Shown: in pieces, positions 13,196 to 31,203 of the stretch | How the letters are laid out: each line of letters starts with the position of its first letter | How positions within the stretch are numbered: the first letter of the stretch is position 1 | Source: a virus | Length of the DNA: 64,000 bases | Reading direction: 5' to 3' (one strand) | IMG/VR virus record: IMGVR_UViG_3300036715_001290 | Coordinates: 32,001-96,000 of that record | The notes under the pieces: generated by a model | Told to the model about the DNA's origin: nothing | Database searches by the model: none | The model's input: the letters and a program-made list of their open reading frames with translations, nothing else | Made by a program: the position numbers and the translations under genes

Positions 13196-13251
13196 CAACT
13201 AACTTGTAATAAATCCACATATGATATATTTATAATAAAAAAGGATTACAT

Positions 13252-13524
13252 ATGACAACTGCCGATTTACTTAAAGAGAATTTTGTTCATAATGATTGGC
13301 CTAGTGCTGTTTATGAAATGATTACTCCTTCAGATTCAACCGTATTTATTGCACCAACTCGAGAAGTTTTTGTTGGTACTGCTGGACAATTAGTAGTACG
13401 TCGACTTGATGGTGTTATAGTAACAATCCCATCATCTATTATTACAGATGGTACAAGTTTACCTATTAGATGTGATATGATTATGGCCGCAACAACTGCA
13501 CAAAATATTTTGGTATTATATTAA
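13252..13524 (+). CDS. Head spike base / capsid vertex decoration protein (RcGTA Rcc01079-like)
   Basis: YEMITPSDST...R.V.VGTAG.LVVR..DG..VT....G..LPIR...I.A.TTA matches my recollection of this ~85-aa family; directly after the capsid gene. Confidence 0.7.
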   Translation: MTTADLLKENFVHNDWPSAVYEMITPSDSTVFIAPTREVFVGTAGQLVVRRLDGVIVTIPSSIITDGTSLPIRCDMIMAATTAQNILVLY

Positions 13525-24062: not shown

Positions 24063-24211
24063 TCTTTATTTTACTAAAAATACATTTTTTTATCTGGGAT
24101 TCTATTACAACCTAAATGTAACAAATAATTAAATTTGTAACAATTTTTACGGAGTCAACTCTGAGAAGTATAAAAGTCCAAAAATGTCCTTTTATACTAG
24201 AATAGAATTGT

Positions 24212-24243
24212 GGTTGCGATTCGCAACCGAGTCCTCCGGACTC
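24212..24243. other. Two adjacent GC-rich inverted repeats in an AT-rich intergenic region
   Basis: GGTTGCGA-T-TCGCAACC immediately followed by GAGTCC-TCC-GGACTC. Confidence 0.7.
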
Positions 24244-24332
24244 CCTGATAGAATATATATTTTTTTATATATAGCTTAATAATAAAGTGTAAATATATTT
24301 ACAGTATAATGATAATATCATACTATTAGATT

Positions 24333-24341
24333 ATATTTATA
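24333..24341 (+). promoter_or_regulatory. Putative phage promoter motif ATATTTAT(A), representative copy before the sheath gene
   Basis: The same motif occurs upstream of genes at 10188, 13226, 20111, 26759, 28611, 36202, 37572, 40459, 45844, 48557 and 50003. Confidence 0.6.
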
Positions 24342-24372
24342 ATAAAATTATTTAATTAAAGGAGGACTATAA

Positions 24373-26676
24373 ATGTCTGATAAACTAATGTCACCTGCTG
24401 TATTTACATCAGAGAATGATAAAACTTACTTACCTCAAGGTGTAGTTGATATTTCAACAGCATTTATAGGTACTACAAAATATGGTAAAGCATTTGTGCC
24501 AACCCAAGTTAAATCACCTCAAGAATTTGATAAATTATTCGCAGATGATAATATTTCATATACTGGTTATGCAGTAAAATCATATCTTAAAAATGCAGCT
24601 TCAGCCCTTGTTGTTAAAGTACTTGGTAATGAAACATCTTCATTAGCATGTTATACATTTGGTGGTGCCGCAAGTGCATCATTTGCTGCTACAAATCCTC
24701 AAGTTGTATTATTACCAACATATAATAGTTCAGCATCAGTAATGACAGGTTTATGTACTACATCATCAAATCAAACATGGGTTCTTACTTCAAGTGCAGG
24801 TAATGTAACCGTATCATTAGCAGATCCTACTTCACCAAATTACATTACAAAAGTATTTGGCCAATCACCTAATTCAAATTTTAACACACCACAAACAATA
24901 ACAGACCAATGGTATGTATATCAATTATACAATGTCGGTACTATAACAACAACTGGTAGTTTTAATTCAGGTACTTTAGGTATTAGTGCAGGATATACAA
25001 ATGCAACTACACCTTATATTACATCACAATTAAATAACGGTAATTCTATTCCATTATTTAAGTTCGGAACTATATTTGATGGTGATTCATCAAATACTTT
25101 AGTTAAAGTATCAATTTGTGATATTAAAAAACCAGCAAGTTCAACTGAATATGGTACATTTACTGTATTAGTACGTGATTTTACAGATACCGATCTTAAT
25201 CCAAATGTATTAGAATCCTTTACAGGTTGTACATTAGATCCTGAATCTATAAATTATGTTTGTGCTCGTATAGGTACACAAACTGAAACTATTAATAATG
25301 CAGGTAAAGTATTAATTGGCGGTGATTGGGAAAATAAATCTTCATATATTTATGTTATTCCTTCTCCACAATTAAAAGATGTACAAAATACAATTGTACC
25401 TTTTGGTCATTCTGCATATACATGGACTTTTATAAGTGGAAGTAACATGTCAAATGTACTTACATCAACATCTTCATTGTATACACAAATTCAAGGTACA
25501 TCTGATACATGGAATCCTCGTGTATATTTTGGTTTGAATTATAGTAATCCAGATGTTAACAATTTATCAGCTGCATTATTAACTAGTTCATTAGGTTCAA
25601 CCGTATATAATTTTAACTTAGATAACTATTCAGTTCATCCTAGTTCAAGTTATGCAACAGGTTCATTGTCAGGAAGTGGTGTTAATTCAGCATTCTTACA
25701 ATTTACAGTTGCATTCCAAGGTGGTTATGACGGTATGCCTTTTAATAGAGTTAGAAACACTGATGAAAATATTACTAGTGCAAATGCATTTGGTTATAAC
25801 TTAACTAATATGTCAAGCCCAGGTAGTACTCAATTCAAATTAGCATTGAATACTCTTCAAAATGCTGATGATTATGATATTAAAGAATATGTTCTCCCAG
25901 GTATTAATGACACAGATCATTTTGCTTTAACAACATATGCAAGAACAATATCATATTTAAGAGGTGGAGATTGTTTTGCTATAATTGACCCTTCAGGTTT
26001 ATCAGCATCTATAGATACTGCAATTGCAGCTACAACTTCAATTGATACAAACTATTCAGCAGGATATTATCCTTGGGTTAAAGTTATAGACCCATCAACA
26101 AGAAAACAACGTTGGTTACCAACCGCAGCTATTCTCCCAGGTGTGCTTGCATACAATGATAGAGTAGGTGGTGAATGGTGGGCACCAGCAGGTTATAATC
26201 GTGCAGGTATTGATAATGCTAAAGGTGTTAAAGATAGATTAACAAAAACAGACCGTGACGTATTATATAATAATAGATTAAATCCTATTATATATTCTAA
26301 AGGTAAGGTTGTTGTTTTTGGTCAAAAAACACAACAAAAGAAAGCATCACAATTAGATAGAATTAACATTAGACGTTTGCTTATAAAATTGAAAAAATTT
26401 GCAGCATCAACAAGTGTTTATTTAATGTTTGATCCTAACACAAAGGCTACGAGAGATTCATTCTTATCTATGGTTAATCCATTCTTAAGATCACTTGTTG
26501 AAAAACAAGGTTTATTTTCTTTCCAAGTTGTAATGGATGAAACAAACAATACACCTGATGTTATAGATAGAAATACTATCAAAGGTGCATTCTATATTAA
26601 ACCAACACCAGATTCTGAATATTTTGAGCTTGAGTTCAATATATTAGCAAATGGTGCTACATTTCCTAATCAATAA
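24373..26676 (+). CDS. Contractile tail sheath (gp18-like)
   Basis: SPAVFTSEND, AFIGTT.YG.AFVPT, YYPWVK, WWAPAG.NR, FGQKT, DRINIRRL, V.MDETNNTPDVIDRN. Confidence 0.95.
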   Translation: MSDKLMSPAVFTSENDKTYLPQGVVDISTAFIGTTKYGKAFVPTQVKSPQEFDKLFADDNISYTGYAVKSYLKNAASALVVKVLGNETSSLACYTFGGAASASFAATNPQVVLLPTYNSSASVMTGLCTTSSNQTWVLTSSAGNVTVSLADPTSPNYITKVFGQSPNSNFNTPQTITDQWYVYQLYNVGTITTTGSFNSGTLGISAGYTNATTPYITSQLNNGNSIPLFKFGTIFDGDSSNTLVKVSICDIKKPASSTEYGTFTVLVRDFTDTDLNPNVLESFTGCTLDPESINYVCARIGTQTETINNAGKVLIGGDWENKSSYIYVIPSPQLKDVQNTIVPFGHSAYTWTFISGSNMSNVLTSTSSLYTQIQGTSDTWNPRVYFGLNYSNPDVNNLSAALLTSSLGSTVYNFNLDNYSVHPSSSYATGSLSGSGVNSAFLQFTVAFQGGYDGMPFNRVRNTDENITSANAFGYNLTNMSSPGSTQFKLALNTLQNADDYDIKEYVLPGINDTDHFALTTYARTISYLRGGDCFAIIDPSGLSASIDTAIAATTSIDTNYSAGYYPWVKVIDPSTRKQRWLPTAAILPGVLAYNDRVGGEWWAPAGYNRAGIDNAKGVKDRLTKTDRDVLYNNRLNPIIYSKGKVVVFGQKTQQKKASQLDRINIRRLLIKLKKFAASTSVYLMFDPNTKATRDSFLSMVNPFLRSLVEKQGLFSFQVVMDETNNTPDVIDRNTIKGAFYIKPTPDSEYFELEFNILANGATFPNQ

Positions 26677-26699
26677 TTGAAAAAGATAAAATAAAAATG

Positions 26700-26741
26700 A
26701 TAAAATATGCTATAGTAAAAATATTATAGCATATTTTATTT
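26700..26741 (+). terminator. AT-rich hairpin / probable terminator after the sheath gene
   Basis: ATAAAATATGCTATA...TATAGCATATTTTAT inverted repeat. Confidence 0.65.
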
Positions 26742-26794
26742 ACTTTTTGTAATATCTTATATTTATAATAAAAAGAATATTAGGAGATAAATAA

Positions 26795-27286
26795 ATGGCA
26801 TTAGGAGTATCAATAGGCCAAGTAAATTTTCAAAATTACGAACCAAAAACTAAATTTCGTTTCATATTTTCGTTTGCTAATACTGGCATCCCTGAGTATA
26901 CTGTTAAAACAGGTGGTAGACCTAAGCTTAGTATGAGTGAGTATAAAGTAGACTATATTAATACTTATCGTTATTATGCAACAAAAGGAGAATGGGAACC
27001 TTTAGAAATAGTATTAATGGACCCTATTACACCAAGCGCAACCAGTGCGGTTATGGATTGGGTACGTTTATGTCAAGATTTTGAAGCTAAGATTGGTGGA
27101 TATAGTGATATTTATAAAAGAGATATTACATTATCAATGTTATCACCTGCTAATGAAGTAGTTGAAATTTGGACATTAACCGGTTGCTGGCCTAAAGCAA
27201 TGGACGGTGGTTCACTTGGATATGCAGATTTAGAAGGCGCTACAGTAGGTATTACATTACGTTTTGATAACGCAAAAACAGAATAA
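26795..27286 (+). CDS. Tail tube protein (gp19-like)
   Basis: EPK.KFRF, WEP..I.L.DPI.PS...AVMDW, YKRDI.L..L.P...VVE.W.L.GCWP. Confidence 0.9.
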   Translation: MALGVSIGQVNFQNYEPKTKFRFIFSFANTGIPEYTVKTGGRPKLSMSEYKVDYINTYRYYATKGEWEPLEIVLMDPITPSATSAVMDWVRLCQDFEAKIGGYSDIYKRDITLSMLSPANEVVEIWTLTGCWPKAMDGGSLGYADLEGATVGITLRFDNAKTE

Positions 27287-27290
27287 AAAT

Positions 27291-27498
27291 AAGATGCCTG
27301 CAAGTTTAAGCCCTTCGGGGGTCGCTTGTAGGCGTTCTTTTAATAAAATGGGTTCATGTTTAAGCTCTTAGGAGTTACATGTTCCCGATATTTAAGAAAC
27401 AGGCTGGATAAAACCATTCGGGGATCCCCGCCTTATAGAGTTTATGACTCTATGACATTGTCGAGGAACCAATAGTACTTAGGTGCTGGAGGTTCCCT
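27291..27498 (+). ncRNA. Putative structured RNA made of five consecutive hairpins
   Basis: GC-rich island; stems with G-U pairs on the + strand; cUUCGg loop and two cUUAGg loops. Confidence 0.6.
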
Positions 27499-27547
27499 AA
27501 CATGTTTAATTAGTTATTAATATACAAAAAATACAAAAGGAGTTATA

Positions 27548-28360
27548 ATGGCAGACACAATATTGCCTAATCCAACAAACACAGAGCAATCGGCATTTGA
27601 ATTAATAGATTTACCTTCAGGTGGATATTTTTATAAACCAGAATCACCTTTAGCTAGTGGTAAAATAAAATTAAGATACCCAACAACAAAACAAGAAGAT
27701 ATCTTATTATCTCAAAATTTATTACAACAAGGTATAGCTGTTGATGAATTTATTAAATCATTAATAATAGAATTGATTGATTATAATGAAATTTTATTAG
27801 CCGATGTACGCGGTTTAATGTATGCATCAAGAATTTTACTTTATGGTCCAAATTTTGATACTGAAATACAATGTCCATCATGTAAAAGAAAAACACCAAA
27901 ATCATTTGATTTATCATTAGTTGATTTCGTTGAAAAAGATTATGAAGGATTAGGTTTTCAACGTGGTGAGAATTTATTTTCATTTACAACATCAAATGGT
28001 ATTTCTATAAAATTTTCATTACCAACAAATGGTGATGAATTAAGAATTAAAGGATATGTAAATGCTATTGGTGGAGGTAGAAATAAAACAACTAATGAAT
28101 TATCACCATCCGTTAGATTATCATTTGCTATTAAAGAAATAATTGAACCTAATAGTAATGTTGTTATTAAAGGTCAACCTCAAATATATAAGTACTTAAC
28201 AAATACTTTTAGATCACAACAATCAAAAGAACTTCGTGATTATATTGAAAAAATATCACCTAACGTAAATATTAAAAGTACATTTGAATGTGATCATTGT
28301 ACGTATAGTGATGATAGGTTCTCAATACCTATAGACAAAAACTTTTTTTGGCCACAGTGA
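27548..28360 (+). CDS. Baseplate hub assembly / tail assembly chaperone (gp26-like)
   Basis: IDLPSGG.FY, T.KQEDIL, CPSC and CDHC Zn motifs, C-terminal FFWP. Confidence 0.8.
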   Translation: MADTILPNPTNTEQSAFELIDLPSGGYFYKPESPLASGKIKLRYPTTKQEDILLSQNLLQQGIAVDEFIKSLIIELIDYNEILLADVRGLMYASRILLYGPNFDTEIQCPSCKRKTPKSFDLSLVDFVEKDYEGLGFQRGENLFSFTTSNGISIKFSLPTNGDELRIKGYVNAIGGGRNKTTNELSPSVRLSFAIKEIIEPNSNVVIKGQPQIYKYLTNTFRSQQSKELRDYIEKISPNVNIKSTFECDHCTYSDDRFSIPIDKNFFWPQ

Positions 28361-28379
28361 GGGATATAAAGCCTCACTG

Positions 28380-28544
28380 ATGGACTTGATATTTACTCTT
28401 ATATATAATTCTAATGGTGGATTTACATTTAATGATGTATATAATATGCCAGTTTATATGAGAGATAATTTCCTTAGCCTTTTGAATAAACAAAAGGAAA
28501 AAGAAGAGGCAGCCATCGCCGCAGCTAAGGGAAAACAAAAATAA
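28380..28544 (+). CDS. gp51-like small ORF missing from the track (MDLIFTLIYNSNGGFTFNDVYNMPVYMRDNFLSLLNKQKEKEE...)
   Basis: F...D..NMP...R pattern. The frame is open from 28335, i.e. +1 relative to the upstream gene across a T7 run; no clear SD. Confidence 0.75.
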   Translation: MDLIFTLIYNSNGGFTFNDVYNMPVYMRDNFLSLLNKQKEKEEAAIAAAKGKQK

Positions 28545-28554
28545 TACTTAATTA

Positions 28555-28583
28555 AAAGGCCACTCAGAAATGTTGTGGCCTTT
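28555..28583 (+). terminator. Hairpin / probable terminator
   Basis: AAAGGCCAC...GTGGCCTTT. Confidence 0.7.
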
Positions 28584-28647
28584 AATGTTTAAGACAATTG
28601 TCAATTCATAATATTTATAAATAGACACATCAAACAAGGATATATAA

Positions 28648-28923
28648 ATGAAATTAACACAAGTTATACATAAAAGTCAATTAATAACTGAAGGATTATT
28701 GTCTAATTTTATTAGTAATCTTTTCTTTAAGGTTAATGGTAAAAGATTAGAAAAGGATTTAGCATCTTCCGATTTAGCATTGAAATATCCTGATGAAACT
28801 AAAAAGTTATTAGCATCAACAAAGAAATTACAAAGTGTTTTTGATACTTATAAAAATGAAATTGCAGCTGACCCAAAATTAGCAGAATTAGTAAGTAAGT
28901 TATCAAAAAAATGGGAAATATAA
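28648..28923 (+). CDS. Small protein before the tape measure gene, putative protease-processed virion protein
   Basis: MKLTQVIHKSQLITE-G N-terminus; AAGGA upstream. Confidence 0.55.
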   Translation: MKLTQVIHKSQLITEGLLSNFISNLFFKVNGKRLEKDLASSDLALKYPDETKKLLASTKKLQSVFDTYKNEIAADPKLAELVSKLSKKWEI

Positions 28924-28926
28924 TAA

Positions 28927-31203
28927 ATGGCCGCAACTACAGATCCACAAGAAATTAATGAGTTTGAAAAAAGCATAGGTGGGTTTACTGATACTTTAGT
29001 TAACTTAATGTCTGAACTTCATGATTCTTTTAATGAGGATACGTTTGAAGAGTTAGTTGAAACACAAAAAGAATTAGCTAATATGTTAAAAGAAGCAGGA
29101 CCTGCATTACATAGCCCAGGTGGTAAATCATCTAGTGCATTGGCAGTTGGTAGTATAGCAGAAATACAAATTGATATATTAAAAGCACAAAAAGAAATAG
29201 CAGATAAAATTGATTTATCAGGTATAGATAAATTCTTTGGTTTAATTGAAAAAATCCCAGGTGGTAAATTTTTACATAATCTTTTAGGATTAGATACTAT
29301 ATCAAATGATATAAAGAAAAATATAAGAGATGAATTTATAAATTCAATGAAAACTGTTAATGGTAAAGTACAAACCGATTTAGTTGGTGGTTTTAGCAAA
29401 GGTATATCAATAATAGGTTCAGGTATTAAAGGTGTTTTCAGTTCACTTATGTTAAATCCTTGGTTAATAGCTATAGGTGTATTAGGTGCCGCTTTTGTTT
29501 ATCTTGAAAAGAAACAAAGTGCTGCTAATGATTTCATGAAAACAACTGGACTTACATTAGGTAATATTAGTAGAACCCGTGGGGATGTTGAAGACTTAAC
29601 TATTAAATATGCAAAAATGGGTGTAAGTGGCGATGAAATATATGCATCAGCCGAAGGTTTATATAATGCATTTGGTAATATAAATTCGGCATCTAAAGAT
29701 ATGTTAGAATCTATGTTAACAATGAATGTACAATGGGGAATAACAACATCGGCAGCATCTTCATTTGCATCATCAATAAAATCATTTGGTAATATAGATG
29801 ATAAAAAAATTGGTGCATTAGGTCGTTCAATGGCAAAAGGTGTTGAGCTTATGGGTATGTCACCTGATGCCGTATTTAAGGATATGGAACAACATTCAGA
29901 AGCAATTGAAAAATATTTTTATAAATTTGGAACATCGGCAACAAAAGCAATGTTAGATATTTATAAAATGGGTGTTGGAATGGGACAAATGGAAAAATCT
30001 ATTAGTCATGTTCTAGATTTTGAACAATCAATTTCAGATGAAATGGAAGCATCGGCAATATTAAATCGTAATATTGATTTAGGTGCTGCACGTAGAGCCG
30101 CATTTGAAGGTGATACTGTAACCGCAATGAAAGAGATAACAAATCAATTAGGTAACCAATCCGATTTTAATAAATTAAACATATATCAAAGAGAAGCTTT
30201 AGCTAAAGCAACTGGAATGAGTGTTAAAGATATTAATGAAATGTACAAAAAACAGGATGCTATGAATAAAATGGATTCTGTTAAACGTGCACAATTGGAA
30301 GCTATTAATAAACAATTGGAAAATGCTAATAATTTAACAGGTGAAGAAGAATTAACCAATAAAAGAAATGAATTATCATTGGCATCATTAAAACATACAA
30401 TGGAAGGTTTATTAACTGTTATTGCTCAATTAATTGCACCTATAGCGGCTGGATTAGAATGGGTTATGAATGCATTCGATAGTATTACTGGTAGTGTTGG
30501 CGGTGCAACATCAATGTTAGGTGGTTTTGTTAGATCACTTAGTATACTTGGTGTTATAGCAGCTGCAACATTTGCAACTGTTTGGTTATATAGAAAAGCA
30601 GGTGGTGTATTTGGAATGTTATTTCCTAAAGGCTCTATAGAAGCACCTTTAGTTGAAACTGAAAGGGCAGTATCAGCTACACTCCCAGGTATAGGTAGAG
30701 CGATCGCAGGTTTTCTATCAGCATTAGCTAATCCTGAAATATGGTTAGGTATTGCTGCATTAGGTGCTATAATGGGAATATTAGTATTATCTGTTATTGG
30801 TTTAGCATATGCATTAAATTTAGCAGCACCTGGGTTTATAGCAATTGGTACTGCAATTCAATTATCATTAATTGGTTTGGGTGCATTCTTTGCGGAAATT
30901 ACAATTGAAAGAGCAGCTGCTCTTTGGGTTATGGTTCCTGCATTGTATGCATTAGCTGGTGCATTAGCTGCCGTTGGTGTTGCTAGCTTATTAATACCTA
31001 AAGATCTTATATCAAAAATATCAGTTAATCATGAAGTATCAAATAAACAAACTGAAACAAAAACCGAAGATTCTTTAGATACTAAAATTGGAAAGATATT
31101 AGATGAAAAATTTGATAAATTTCTAAATGCTTTAAATTCAATGGCGGTTAATATGGATGGACAAAAAGTCGGTCGTGTTATTGCCGCAGGTATTAAAAAA
31201 TAA
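28927..31203 (+). CDS. Tape measure protein
   Basis: Helical and Ala/Gly-rich; LDFEQSI..EMEAS..L.R.I.L..AR and QREALAKA.GM motifs; hydrophobic segments; ends V.MDG.KVG. Confidence 0.85.
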   Translation: MAATTDPQEINEFEKSIGGFTDTLVNLMSELHDSFNEDTFEELVETQKELANMLKEAGPALHSPGGKSSSALAVGSIAEIQIDILKAQKEIADKIDLSGIDKFFGLIEKIPGGKFLHNLLGLDTISNDIKKNIRDEFINSMKTVNGKVQTDLVGGFSKGISIIGSGIKGVFSSLMLNPWLIAIGVLGAAFVYLEKKQSAANDFMKTTGLTLGNISRTRGDVEDLTIKYAKMGVSGDEIYASAEGLYNAFGNINSASKDMLESMLTMNVQWGITTSAASSFASSIKSFGNIDDKKIGALGRSMAKGVELMGMSPDAVFKDMEQHSEAIEKYFYKFGTSATKAMLDIYKMGVGMGQMEKSISHVLDFEQSISDEMEASAILNRNIDLGAARRAAFEGDTVTAMKEITNQLGNQSDFNKLNIYQREALAKATGMSVKDINEMYKKQDAMNKMDSVKRAQLEAINKQLENANNLTGEEELTNKRNELSLASLKHTMEGLLTVIAQLIAPIAAGLEWVMNAFDSITGSVGGATSMLGGFVRSLSILGVIAAATFATVWLYRKAGGVFGMLFPKGSIEAPLVETERAVSATLPGIGRAIAGFLSALANPEIWLGIAALGAIMGILVLSVIGLAYALNLAAPGFIAIGTAIQLSLIGLGAFFAEITIERAAALWVMVPALYALAGALAAVGVASLLIPKDLISKISVNHEVSNKQTETKTEDSLDTKIGKILDEKFDKFLNALNSMAVNMDGQKVGRVIAAGIKK

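What the first reader, a model, noticed from the sequence alone, without database searches (positions are those of the whole stretch)
27291..27498. GC-rich array of five RNA hairpins between the tail tube and chaperone genes
Seen: H1 GAUGCCUGCAAG...CCC-UUCG-GGG...CUUGUAGGCGUU; H2 GGG-UU-CAUGU..AGCUC-UUAG-GAGUU-ACAUG-UU-CCC; H3 AGGC[UGG-AUAAAA-CCA][GGGG-AU-CCCC]GCCU; H4 AUAGAGU-UUAUG-ACUCUAU; H5 GGAACC-AA-UAGUAC-UUAG-GUGCUG-GA-GGUUCC. Several G-U pairs work only on the + strand, internal loops recur, and three loops are C-UUNG-G. This is far more structure than one terminator needs, and it is not tRNA-like. Inference: an undescribed phage ncRNA or a set of processed ~40-nt RNAs (protein decoy or anti-defence sponge), or a processing element that sets tube versus chaperone/TMP stoichiometry.
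Basis: partly seen in the sequence, partly recalled or inferred. Interest (0 to 1): 0.72.

Follow-up and report, generated by a model that had tools for sequence, protein, structure and literature searches.

The report
Duplicated terminator hairpins after tail-tube gene
The gap after the tail-tube gene of an uncultured T4-like phage holds four diverged tandem copies of one RNA hairpin, most likely an enlarged terminator and mRNA-protecting spacer rather than a new RNA gene, though it is oddly variable between strains.

Summary
The 261-nt spacer between the tube gene (gp19-like) and the baseplate-hub gene (gp26-like, PF12322) folds on the + strand into five hairpins (-80.3 kcal/mol, z -5.2). 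The minus strand gives -56.8. It is the most structured intergenic region in the 140-kb record.

New here: H1, H2, H3 and H5 are paralogues, from two rounds of tandem duplication of one ~38-nt hairpin. Seven of 15 pair columns carry changes on both sides. H1 keeps a U-tract, so it is the terminator.

A late-promoter-like TATTAATA lies 25 nt before the hub ATG. H2-H5 therefore sit between terminator and next promoter and are reached only by read-through.

Fifty syntenic relatives have one terminator plus a TATTTATA-type motif in about 100 nt. None has this array. There is no Rfam hit, no other copy in the genome and no match in public scans.

Best reading: an amplified terminator and 3'-end barrier that keeps tube expression high and hub expression low. 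The ncRNA or sponge reading has no support of its own.

Unexplained: all 8 differences from a strain variant, and the only assembly bubble in 38.5 kb, fall in H1-H3.

The scan had already noted this same stretch from another window (e1-5785162).

The parts
26760..26769 (+). Late-promoter-like motif TATTTATAAT ahead of the tube gene
   Evidence: Exact + strand matches lie 25-31 nt before the ATGs at 13252, 24373 and 26795. A one-mismatch form, TATTTATAAA, lies before 28648 (sequences).
26795..27286 (+). Tail tube gene (163 aa, T4 gp19 family), TAA stop
   Evidence: PF06841 and phrog_4542 hits. Full length compared with relatives of 159-167 aa.
27293..27336 (+). H1: hairpin with a 13-pair lower stem (4 G-U pairs) and a CCC-UUCG-GGG apex. 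Family copy 1, the terminator stem
   Evidence: -24.8 kcal/mol, z -4.6. Covariance-model match at 43.8 bits.
27335..27341 (+). U-rich tract UUCUUUU directly after H1
   Evidence: Read from the sequence. Relatives carry a stem plus U-run in this spacer.
27350..27386 (+). H2: family copy 2, with a C-UUAG-G loop, a UU/UU internal loop and a UUA bulge
   Evidence: -16.0 kcal/mol, z -5.0. Its 5' half is 77% identical to that of H1. Model match at 49 bits.
27399..27435 (+). H3: family copy 3, degenerate. The apex is CCA-UUCG-GGG here and CCC-UUCG-GGG in the L004 allele
   Evidence: -10.5 kcal/mol, z -0.8 alone. It aligns with H1 in family register. Model match at 44.2 bits.
27434..27454 (+). H4: small AU-rich hairpin of 9 pairs. 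Not a family member; it is built partly from the 3' tail of copy 3
   Evidence: -7.1 kcal/mol, z -4.7. The half-against-half alignment places its 5' arm opposite the 3' arm of H1.
27464..27497 (+). H5: family copy 4, with a C-UUAG-G loop and an AA/GA internal loop
   Evidence: -16.9 kcal/mol, z -3.8. 64% identical to H2. Model match at 32.4 bits.
27310..27416 (.). Microdiversity hot spot. There are 8 variant sites (27310, 27321, 27322, 27324, 27335, 27381, 27402, 27416) between the window and contig L004
   Evidence: One search finds no differences in the other ~2.86 kb compared (about 2.4 kb of it coding). The contig break at 27380/27417 in SRR11723144 is shown.
27515..27522 (+). Late-promoter-like TATTAATA, 25 nt before the hub ATG. 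It has one mismatch to the phage's TATTTATA
   Evidence: The same variant occurs at the same place in relatives L042 and L048. Exact TATTTATA lies 20-37 nt before the hub ATG in 19 of 50 relatives.
27539..27542 (+). Shine-Dalgarno GGAG of the hub gene
   Evidence: Read from the sequence.
27548..28360 (+). Baseplate-hub gene (270 aa, T4 gp26-like, PF12322)

Best explanation
The array is an amplified terminator spacer, not a separate RNA gene.

Origin: one ~38-nt hairpin, the intrinsic terminator of the tail-tube gene, duplicated in tandem twice. The first round gave an H1 type and an H2 type. The second round copied the pair to give H3 and H5. The result is four diverged copies, plus the small hairpin H4 built from the tail of copy 3.

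Layout: the copies lie between the tube stop codon and the hub gene's own late promoter.

Proposed function: H1 still has its U-tract and ends most tube transcripts. Polymerases that read through transcribe H2-H5. These fold into a row of stable 3' stem-loops. They slow or stop the polymerase and block 3'-to-5' exonucleases. Tube mRNA stays abundant and little transcription leaks into the low-copy hub genes.

Shown: the hairpins, their common descent, kept pairing, position relative to terminator and promoter motifs, absence in relatives.
Inferred: termination, read-through, and the barrier or stabilising effect.
For: - Structure and strand bias.
- Common descent: the 5' halves of H1, H2 and H3 form a direct-repeat family (77% and 61% identity, spacing 54 and 49 nt). 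The 3' halves of H2 and H5 are 75% identical at a spacing of 111 nt.
- The two ~105-nt halves align with z 4.5; 1 of 1000 shuffles reaches the score.
- The loops alternate UUCG, UUAG, UUCG, UUAG, as two rounds of duplication predict.
- Kept pairing: on the four copies plus three allelic rows, 78% of cells pair against 60.4 +/- 2.8 in shuffles (0 of 500). Seven of 15 pairs change on both sides. The covariation score is 0.44 against 0.18 (0 of 500). Slid controls pair at 24-45% (without H3).
- Ancestral layout: 40 of 50 syntenic relatives have one perfect stem plus U-run in a ~100-nt spacer. Nineteen have an exact TATTTATA 20-37 nt before the hub ATG.
- This phage uses the same one-terminator-plus-promoter layout after the 556-aa gene and after the sheath gene.
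- H1 is followed by UUCUUUU, and TATTAATA lies 25 nt before the hub ATG.
- C(UUCG)G hairpins are common in intergenic regions of T4-type phages. Tuerk et al. 1988 report this, as summarised in PMC8948821 and PMC4371310.
Against: - There is no transcript data, so termination at H1 and read-through into H2-H5 are untested.
- Only H1 has a U-tract, so H2-H5 are not canonical terminators.
- Relatives manage with one terminator, so extra hairpins are not needed for tube-to-hub control.
- The L004 allele is 10 kcal/mol weaker. It has three pair-breaking changes, one compatible change and one pair-making change, so constraint on H2 and H3 is not strict.
- The covariation rests on four paralogues within one locus. 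Arm-to-arm template switching at imperfect palindromes could produce matched changes without selection.
- The promoter at 27515 is a motif match only.
Confidence: 0.5

Rival explanations
1. Neutral by-product. The terminator hairpin was duplicated by slippage or unequal recombination at a spacer that is an insertion hot spot. Only H1 works. H2-H5 are drifting copies, and their matched arm changes come from template switching at imperfect palindromes rather than from selection.
For: - The tube-to-hub slot is plastic. Thirteen of the 55 syntenic relatives carry spacers of 200 nt or more there, with unrelated ORFs of 50-154 aa.
- Composite terminator/promoter cassettes are known to drive indels in T4-type phages (PMC2839356, PMC4122927).
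- H3 is degenerate.
- The L004 allele loses 10 kcal/mol.
- The variant cluster in H1-H3 fits a local mutational hot spot.
- The array is absent from all relatives.
Against: - Pairing is kept in 78% of cells across copies that are only 60-77% identical, with seven double-sided changes.
- G-U pairs are kept at several columns. Template switching would not produce these.
- The spacer is GC-rich (0.38 against a genome value of 0.28) and is the most stable intergenic fold in the genome. Drift in a 28% GC genome should erode that.
Confidence: 0.2
2. A functional multi-hairpin RNA, either whole or cut into ~40-nt pieces. It would be released from tube read-through transcripts and would bind a protein at its repeated C-UUNG-G loops, acting as a decoy or sponge, for example against a host defence.
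For: - Four copies share invariant loop and closing-pair positions (C6, A14, U19, U20, G23, G24, G26).
- Pairing is maintained.
- The only C(UUAG)G hairpins in the genome are here.
- The strain-level variant cluster could reflect diversifying selection.
Against: - No promoter-like motif lies ahead of H2.
- There is no Rfam match.
- There is no homologue in relatives, in the rest of the genome or in public scans.
- UUCG loops are reported to bind no proteins and to make no RNA contacts (PMC4371310).
- The variant changes do not spare the structure.
Confidence: 0.12
3. Endonuclease processing sites, of the phage T7 RNase III type. Cleavage would separate tube mRNA from hub mRNA and leave a protective 3' hairpin. 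Alternatively, the hairpins are operators for a translational repressor of the hub gene.
For: - The hairpins have symmetric internal loops (H2 UU/UU, H5 AA/GA).
- They lie between a very abundant and a low-copy gene product.
- GGAG occurs in H2 and H5.
- The T7 precedent is from established knowledge and was not tested here.
Against: - The helices are short: about 17, 13 and 12 pairs in H1, H2 and H5. The usual RNase III substrate has about 20.
- The internal loops are not at homologous positions.
- The hub ribosome-binding site lies 43 nt beyond H5 and is unpaired.
- The hub gene appears to have its own promoter downstream of the array.
Confidence: 0.08
4. A DNA-level element. The imperfect palindromes would act as cruciforms or protein-binding sites, for example a replication or recombination hot spot or a packaging signal.
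For: - A perfect 12-nt palindrome, CGGGGATCCCCG, lies in H3.
- The strain variants cluster locally.
Against: - Folding is strongly strand-asymmetric, z -5.2 against -2.5.
- G-U pairs kept on the + strand would be A-C mismatches on the other strand.
- Relatives have no counterpart.
Confidence: 0.05

Closest known systems
Intrinsic (Rho-independent) terminators at late-gene boundaries of T4-like phages
   Same: - H1 is a GC-rich stem directly after a stop codon, followed by UUCUUUU.
- 40 of 50 syntenic relatives have a single terminator in this spacer.
- Elsewhere in this phage the same terminator-then-late-promoter layout is used.
   Different: - Three extra paralogous hairpins without U-tracts, plus H4, follow H1.
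- The H1 stem is irregular, with 4 G-U pairs and an internal loop.
- The spacer is 261 nt rather than about 100 nt.
C(UUCG)G hairpins of phage T4 intergenic regions (Tuerk et al. 1988, as cited in PMC8948821 and PMC4371310)
   Same: - H1 has CCC-UUCG-GGG, as does H3 in the L004 allele.
- The hairpins are intergenic, in a T4-like phage.
- Two relatives (L015, L021) have C(UUCG)G-looped terminators at the same boundary.
   Different: - H2 and H5 carry UUAG, which is not a UNCG loop.
- Here the hairpins are tandem paralogues at a single locus, not scattered single hairpins.
REP/BIME clusters of enterobacteria and the puf-operon intercistronic hairpins of Rhodobacter (mRNA 3'-end stabilisers; from established knowledge)
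   Same: - Several imperfect palindromes of about 35-40 nt lie in a transcribed gap after a highly expressed gene.
- The proposed role is the same: blocking 3' exonucleases and damping read-through to set subunit ratios.
   Different: - REPs are dispersed in many copies, often in alternating orientation, and are moved by RAYT transposases.
- This family has four copies, all direct, at one locus only.
PeSL composite promoter/terminator cassettes of T4-type phages (PMC2839356, PMC4122927)
   Same: - It is a terminator-plus-promoter spacer in a T4-like genome, at a slot where relatives gain and lose small genes.
- Recombination between such cassettes could give tandem copies.
   Different: - PeSLs pair a sigma-70-type early promoter with a stem-loop and recur throughout the hyperplastic regions.
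- Here the promoter motif is of the late type, the locus lies in the structural core, and no second copy exists.
Phage T7 RNase III processing hairpins (from established knowledge)
   Same: They are intercistronic hairpins with internal loops, and their cleavage leaves protective 3' stem-loops.
   Different: The helices here are shorter (12-17 pairs), and there is no evidence of cleavage.

Membership tests
Any Rfam family (release 15) | A covariance-model score at or above the gathering threshold | tested here: not met
   There were no hits at gathering thresholds over the whole window. With permissive filters on 27200-27620, the best E-values were 6-9 against unrelated families.
tRNA or tmRNA | A cloverleaf detected by ARAGORN | tested here: not met
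   ARAGORN finds none in the window. The genome's 40 tRNAs all lie at 109.5-128.4 kb of the record.
Intrinsic terminator (H1) | A stable GC-rich stem-loop immediately followed by a U-rich tract, downstream of a stop codon | tested here: met
   The stem folds at -24.8 kcal/mol. UUCUUUU lies at 27335-27341 and the stem begins 7 nt after the TAA stop. The simple consensus scanner missed it because of the irregular apex.
Intrinsic terminator (H1) | Transcripts actually end there | not testable with these tools
   No RNA data are available.
Intrinsic terminator (H2-H5) | A U-rich tract after the stem | tested here: not met
   The tails are GAUAUUUAAG after H2, ACAUUGUCGA after H4 and CUAACAUGUU after H5.
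T4-type C(UUCG)G hairpin | (X)2-8 CUUCGG (Y)2-8 with X complementary to Y, in an intergenic region (PMC8948821) | tested here: met
   H1 has CCC-UUCG-GGG. H3 meets the rule only in the L004 allele. H2 and H5 have UUAG and do not meet it.
REP/BIME | Many dispersed copies per genome | tested here: not met
   The covariance model finds only the four local copies in 140.9 kb. blastn-short finds no other copy.
REP/BIME | Imperfect palindromes of about 35-40 nt in transcribed extragenic DNA | tested here: met
   Four hairpins of 34-38 nt lie between two co-oriented late genes.
PeSL cassette | A sigma-70-type early promoter joined to a terminator stem-loop, recurring through the genome | tested here: not met
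   There is a single locus. The adjoining promoter motif is of the late TATTTATA type.
CRISPR array | Near-identical repeats separated by unique spacers of similar length | tested here: not met
   The copies are only 61-77% identical. They are separated by AT-rich linkers of 12-16 nt, apart from the H3-to-H5 gap, which holds H4.
Diversity-generating retroelement variable region | A template repeat elsewhere in the genome, with differences at adenines | tested here: not met
   There is no second copy in the 140-kb record. The variant sites are mostly G/A and include a deletion. The record is estimated to be about 70% complete, so absence is not absolute.
RNase III substrate (T7 type) | A helix of about 20 pairs with an internal loop at the cleavage site | tested here: inconclusive
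   H1 has about 17 pairs, H2 13 and H5 12. Cleavage is not testable here.

The most novel reading that the evidence does not exclude
The four paralogous hairpins form a working multi-site RNA. It would be released from tube read-through transcripts and would bind a host or phage protein at its conserved C-UUNG-G apices, for example as a decoy for a nuclease or an RNA-sensing defence. It would be under diversifying selection. That would explain why all strain-level variation in 3 kb, and the only assembly bubble in 38.5 kb, fall inside H1-H3.
Probability: 0.1. Interest if true: 0.7.

Novelty: new variant of a known kind. Interest (0 to 1): 0.33.

Why it matters
If the reading is right, this is a clear natural case of a terminator hairpin amplified in tandem, with each copy kept foldable. 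It would show how phages tune the large expression gap between an abundant tail-tube protein and low-copy hub proteins.

It also warns against calling every structured, GC-rich phage spacer a new ncRNA. Position relative to terminator and promoter motifs, and comparison with syntenic relatives, explain most of this one.

The open point is the variability. The array is the one hypervariable spot in an otherwise clonal 38-kb stretch. That could mark either a mutational hot spot at imperfect palindromes or selection on the RNA, and existing read sets could tell these apart.

Tried and rejected
- **Rfam:** both gathering and permissive thresholds gave nothing. ARAGORN found no tRNA.
- **Phage GenBank records:** distant blastn with tube, spacer and hub gave no match.
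- **Close relatives for covariation:** none exist. The nearest tube protein among 1.8 billion representatives is 45-46% identical. The nearest sheath is 43-47% identical. The first viral-contig scan with the tube protein found nothing, and the tube alignment was too divergent to scan with.
- **Public pattern scans:**
  - H5 and H2 patterns in viral contigs gave 0 hits.
  - The H1 stem pattern gave 19 hits, all in unrelated GC-rich contigs. By my estimate that is about the number expected by chance.
  - The H3/H4 junction gave 0 hits in metagenome contigs.
  - The H1 and H5 cores gave 0 hits in 185,579 species genomes.
- **Coding potential:**
  - The longest ORF in the spacer is 39 aa. It has no Shine-Dalgarno sequence and about 44% GC at third positions, in a 28% GC genome.
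  - A 25-aa ORF over H1 is frameshifted in L004.
  - All three L004 changes inside the 39-aa ORF alter the amino acid.
- **Relic of a small gene:** the spacer shows no similarity to the small ORFs that relatives carry at this slot.
- **TAG recoding by the phage's tRNA-CUA:** coding density is 0.879 under the standard code and 0.889 with TAG read as sense, so there is no sign of recoding.
- **Diversity-generating retroelement:** no template copy was found.
- **Gene conversion between the two units:** only 2 of the 8 variant sites fit (my reading).
- **Restriction-site avoidance:** the changes both create and destroy sites (my inspection).
- **Simple terminator scanner:** it missed H1 because of its irregular apex.
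- **Covariance-model search:** no further copies in the rest of the genome or in 83 related loci.

Full report
**Context**

- The window is bases 32001-96000 of a 140,489-nt IMG/VR virus record, estimated about 70% complete. Its GC content is 28%.
- The finding lies in the late structural block. Gene order is as follows:
  - sheath, 24373-26676;
  - tail tube, 26795-27286 (PF06841, T4 gp19);
  - a 261-nt spacer;
  - a PF12322 "T4 baseplate" gene, 27548-28360 (gp26-like);
  - a 54-aa ORF, a 91-aa ORF and a 758-aa ORF.

- Yes. The + strand of 27281-27510 folds at -80.3 kcal/mol. Shuffles give -55.5 +/- 4.7, so z is -5.2 and 0 of 200 shuffles do as well.
- The minus strand reaches only -56.8, z -2.5.
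- H1, H2, H4 and H5 are each significant alone. H3 is not, with z -0.8.
- In a 120-nt sliding fold of the whole record, this spacer ranks with the tRNA genes.
- Among the intergenic regions scored it has the lowest energy per base, -30.2 kcal per 100 nt. Outside the tRNA block it is the only one with GC above 0.32.
- Rfam and ARAGORN find nothing.

**What the hairpins are to each other**

- The repeat finder shows that the 5' halves of H1, H2 and H3 form one direct-repeat family. Identity to H1 is 77% and 61%, with spacing of 54 and 49 nt. The 3' halves of H2 and H5 are 75% identical at a spacing of 111 nt.
- The two ~105-nt halves of the array align globally with z 4.5; 1 of 1000 shuffles reaches the score.
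- The loops run UUCG, UUAG, UUCG, UUAG.
- This is what two rounds of tandem duplication of one ~38-nt hairpin would give. First a pair formed, then the pair was copied.
- H4 is not a family member. Its 5' arm aligns with the 3' arm of H1, so it looks rebuilt from the tail of copy 3.
- On a MAFFT alignment of the four copies plus the three allelic forms, one common structure of 15 pairs fits:
  - 78% of cells pair, against 60.4 +/- 2.8 in shuffles (0 of 500);
  - seven pairs change on both sides;
  - the covariation score is 0.44 against 0.18 (0 of 500);
  - sliding the partners drops pairing to 24-45%.
- Without H3 the result is 85% paired and six double-sided pairs.
- The copies are only 60-77% identical, so pairing has been kept while the sequence drifted.
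- Caveats: there are only four paralogues at one locus, and the allelic rows are near-duplicates. Template switching between the arms of imperfect palindromes could also give matched changes without selection.

**Where the array sits in the transcription map**

- The phage's late genes are preceded by TATTTATAAT 25-31 nt before the ATG, at 13227, 24334 and 26760. A one-mismatch form lies at 28612.
- Two other late boundaries have the plain layout of one perfect-stem terminator with a U-run, then this motif, then the ribosome-binding site. They are the boundary after the 556-aa ORF and the one after the sheath.
- I gathered 83 related loci through the sheath protein. I found the tube-to-hub junction in 55 of them.
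- The typical spacer is about 100 nt, with GC 0.14-0.28 and 1-3 hairpins.
- Forty of 50 relatives with scorable spacers have a strict terminator. Nineteen have an exact TATTTATA 20-37 nt before the hub ATG, and others have one-mismatch forms.
- In the window, H1 is followed by UUCUUUU, and TATTAATA lies at 27515-27522, 25 nt before the ATG. The same variant is seen in relatives L042 and L048.
- H2-H5 therefore lie between the terminator and the next promoter, with no promoter-like motif of their own. They can be transcribed only by read-through of H1.

**Uniqueness**

- No relative has the array. The window is the outlier in both GC and energy density.
- Longer spacers in relatives hold unrelated small ORFs of 50-154 aa. 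The window spacer shows no trace of any of them.
- A covariance model of the hairpin family finds only its four members in the 140.9 kb of this genome. It finds nothing in 606 kb of related loci.
- Pattern scans of viral, metagenome and species-genome collections give nothing beyond chance.
- The closest tube and sheath proteins anywhere are 43-47% identical. No close relatives exist for classical covariation analysis.

**Strain variation (unexplained)**

- Four near-identical Logan contigs cover the tube gene. Three are 100% identical to the window over 1.8-6.5 kb.
- L004 (SRR11723145, window 26168-29133) differs at 8 sites, all at 27310-27416 in H1-H3. There are no differences in the other ~2.86 kb compared, about 2.4 kb of it coding.
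- In SRR11723144 one contig ends at 27380 and the next starts at 27417. These positions flank variant sites 27381 and 27416.
- The two contig lengths plus 36 nt equal the single 38,583-nt contig of SRR11727740. The only assembly bubble in 38.5 kb therefore lies in H2-H3.
- The L004 allele folds 10 kcal/mol weaker, at -69.9. It has:
  - one compatible change (U-G to U-A in H1);
  - one pair-making change (A to C restores the family's conserved closing C-G in H3);
  - three pair-breaking changes;
  - three changes in loops.
- The array is thus a local hot spot of change, and constraint on individual pairs is loose.
- I cannot tell apart hypermutation at imperfect palindromes, import of a short diverged tract, and diversifying selection.

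**Mechanism**

- The most economical reading is an amplified terminator spacer.
- H1 ends most tube transcripts.
- H2-H5 fold on read-through RNA into stacked 3' stem-loops. These hinder the polymerase and 3' exonucleases. Tube mRNA stays high and little transcription leaks into the hub genes, which have their own late promoter.
- This works like REP/BIME clusters or the Rhodobacter puf intercistronic hairpins (established knowledge). It also fits the known abundance of C(UUCG)G hairpins in T4 intergenic regions (PMC8948821, PMC4371310).
- The duplication could have come from recombination between terminator/promoter cassettes, as described for PeSLs (PMC2839356, PMC4122927). The array fails the PeSL and REP membership tests, because it is a single locus with direct orientation and a late-type promoter motif.
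- Shown: structure, descent, kept pairing, position, uniqueness, strain variation.
- Inferred: termination, read-through, stabilisation.

**Verdict**

- The hairpins are real and + strand specific, and they are more than one terminator needs.
- They are four copies of the terminator hairpin itself, not a separate RNA gene with its own promoter or relatives.
- I rate this a new variant of a known kind, of modest interest. The hypervariability is the one feature that deserves follow-up with the existing read sets.

Noticed in passing
Genome record 109582-128437 (beyond the window's 3' end; loci L008, L009): There is a block of 40 tRNA genes, including a tRNA with anticodon CUA (an amber suppressor, labelled Pyl by ARAGORN) at 111072-111143. 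Reading TAG as sense barely changes coding density (0.879 against 0.889), so there is no sign of stop-codon recoding.
   Followed up: partly
window 24063-24372: The 310-nt spacer ahead of the sheath gene is also multi-hairpin (z -4.4). It includes two adjacent GC-rich hairpins at about 24210-24245, one with a C-UCCG-G loop, upstream of the late-promoter motif at 24334. They are not members of the hairpin family described here.
   Followed up: partly
window 28350-28660: The region after the hub gene is strongly structured (z -6.05). It overlaps a 54-aa ORF (28380-28544) and ends in a terminator-like hairpin at about 28556-28583. I did not test that.
   Followed up: no
Related loci L015, L021, L029, L048, L051, L062, L072, L076, L077, L079, L082, L087, L093 (tube-to-hub spacers): The slot between tube and hub genes is an insertion hot spot. 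Thirteen of the 55 syntenic relatives carry spacers of 200 nt or more there, holding unrelated ORFs of 50-154 aa. These include a 71-73-aa ORF rich in hydrophobic residues that is shared by four loci.
   Followed up: partly
L012:6383-7226 and L013:6372-8084: One relative has a T5orf172 (homing-endonuclease-like) gene on the opposite strand between sheath and tube. In that relative the tube position is called as two ORFs of 93 and 58 aa. Another relative has a 570-aa DUF7487 gene inserted between sheath and tube.
   Followed up: no
window 13227, 24334, 26760, 28612, 27515: A late-promoter-like motif, TATTTATA(AT), lies 25-31 nt before the ATG of late genes. It is shared with distant relatives as GTATTTATATATAC. 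It resembles the T4 late promoter TATAAATA.
   Followed up: partly
window ~10566 and ~49148: Independent assemblies from two samples end at the same two coordinates. This suggests repeats or polymorphic sites there.
   Followed up: no
window 30850-31000: The strongest 120-nt fold in the genome (-44.8 kcal/mol) lies inside the 758-aa ORF. It sits in a stretch of repeated GGTGCATTAGCTG-type codons that encodes a Gly/Ala-rich hydrophobic segment. It is probably a by-product of the coding repeat.
   Followed up: no
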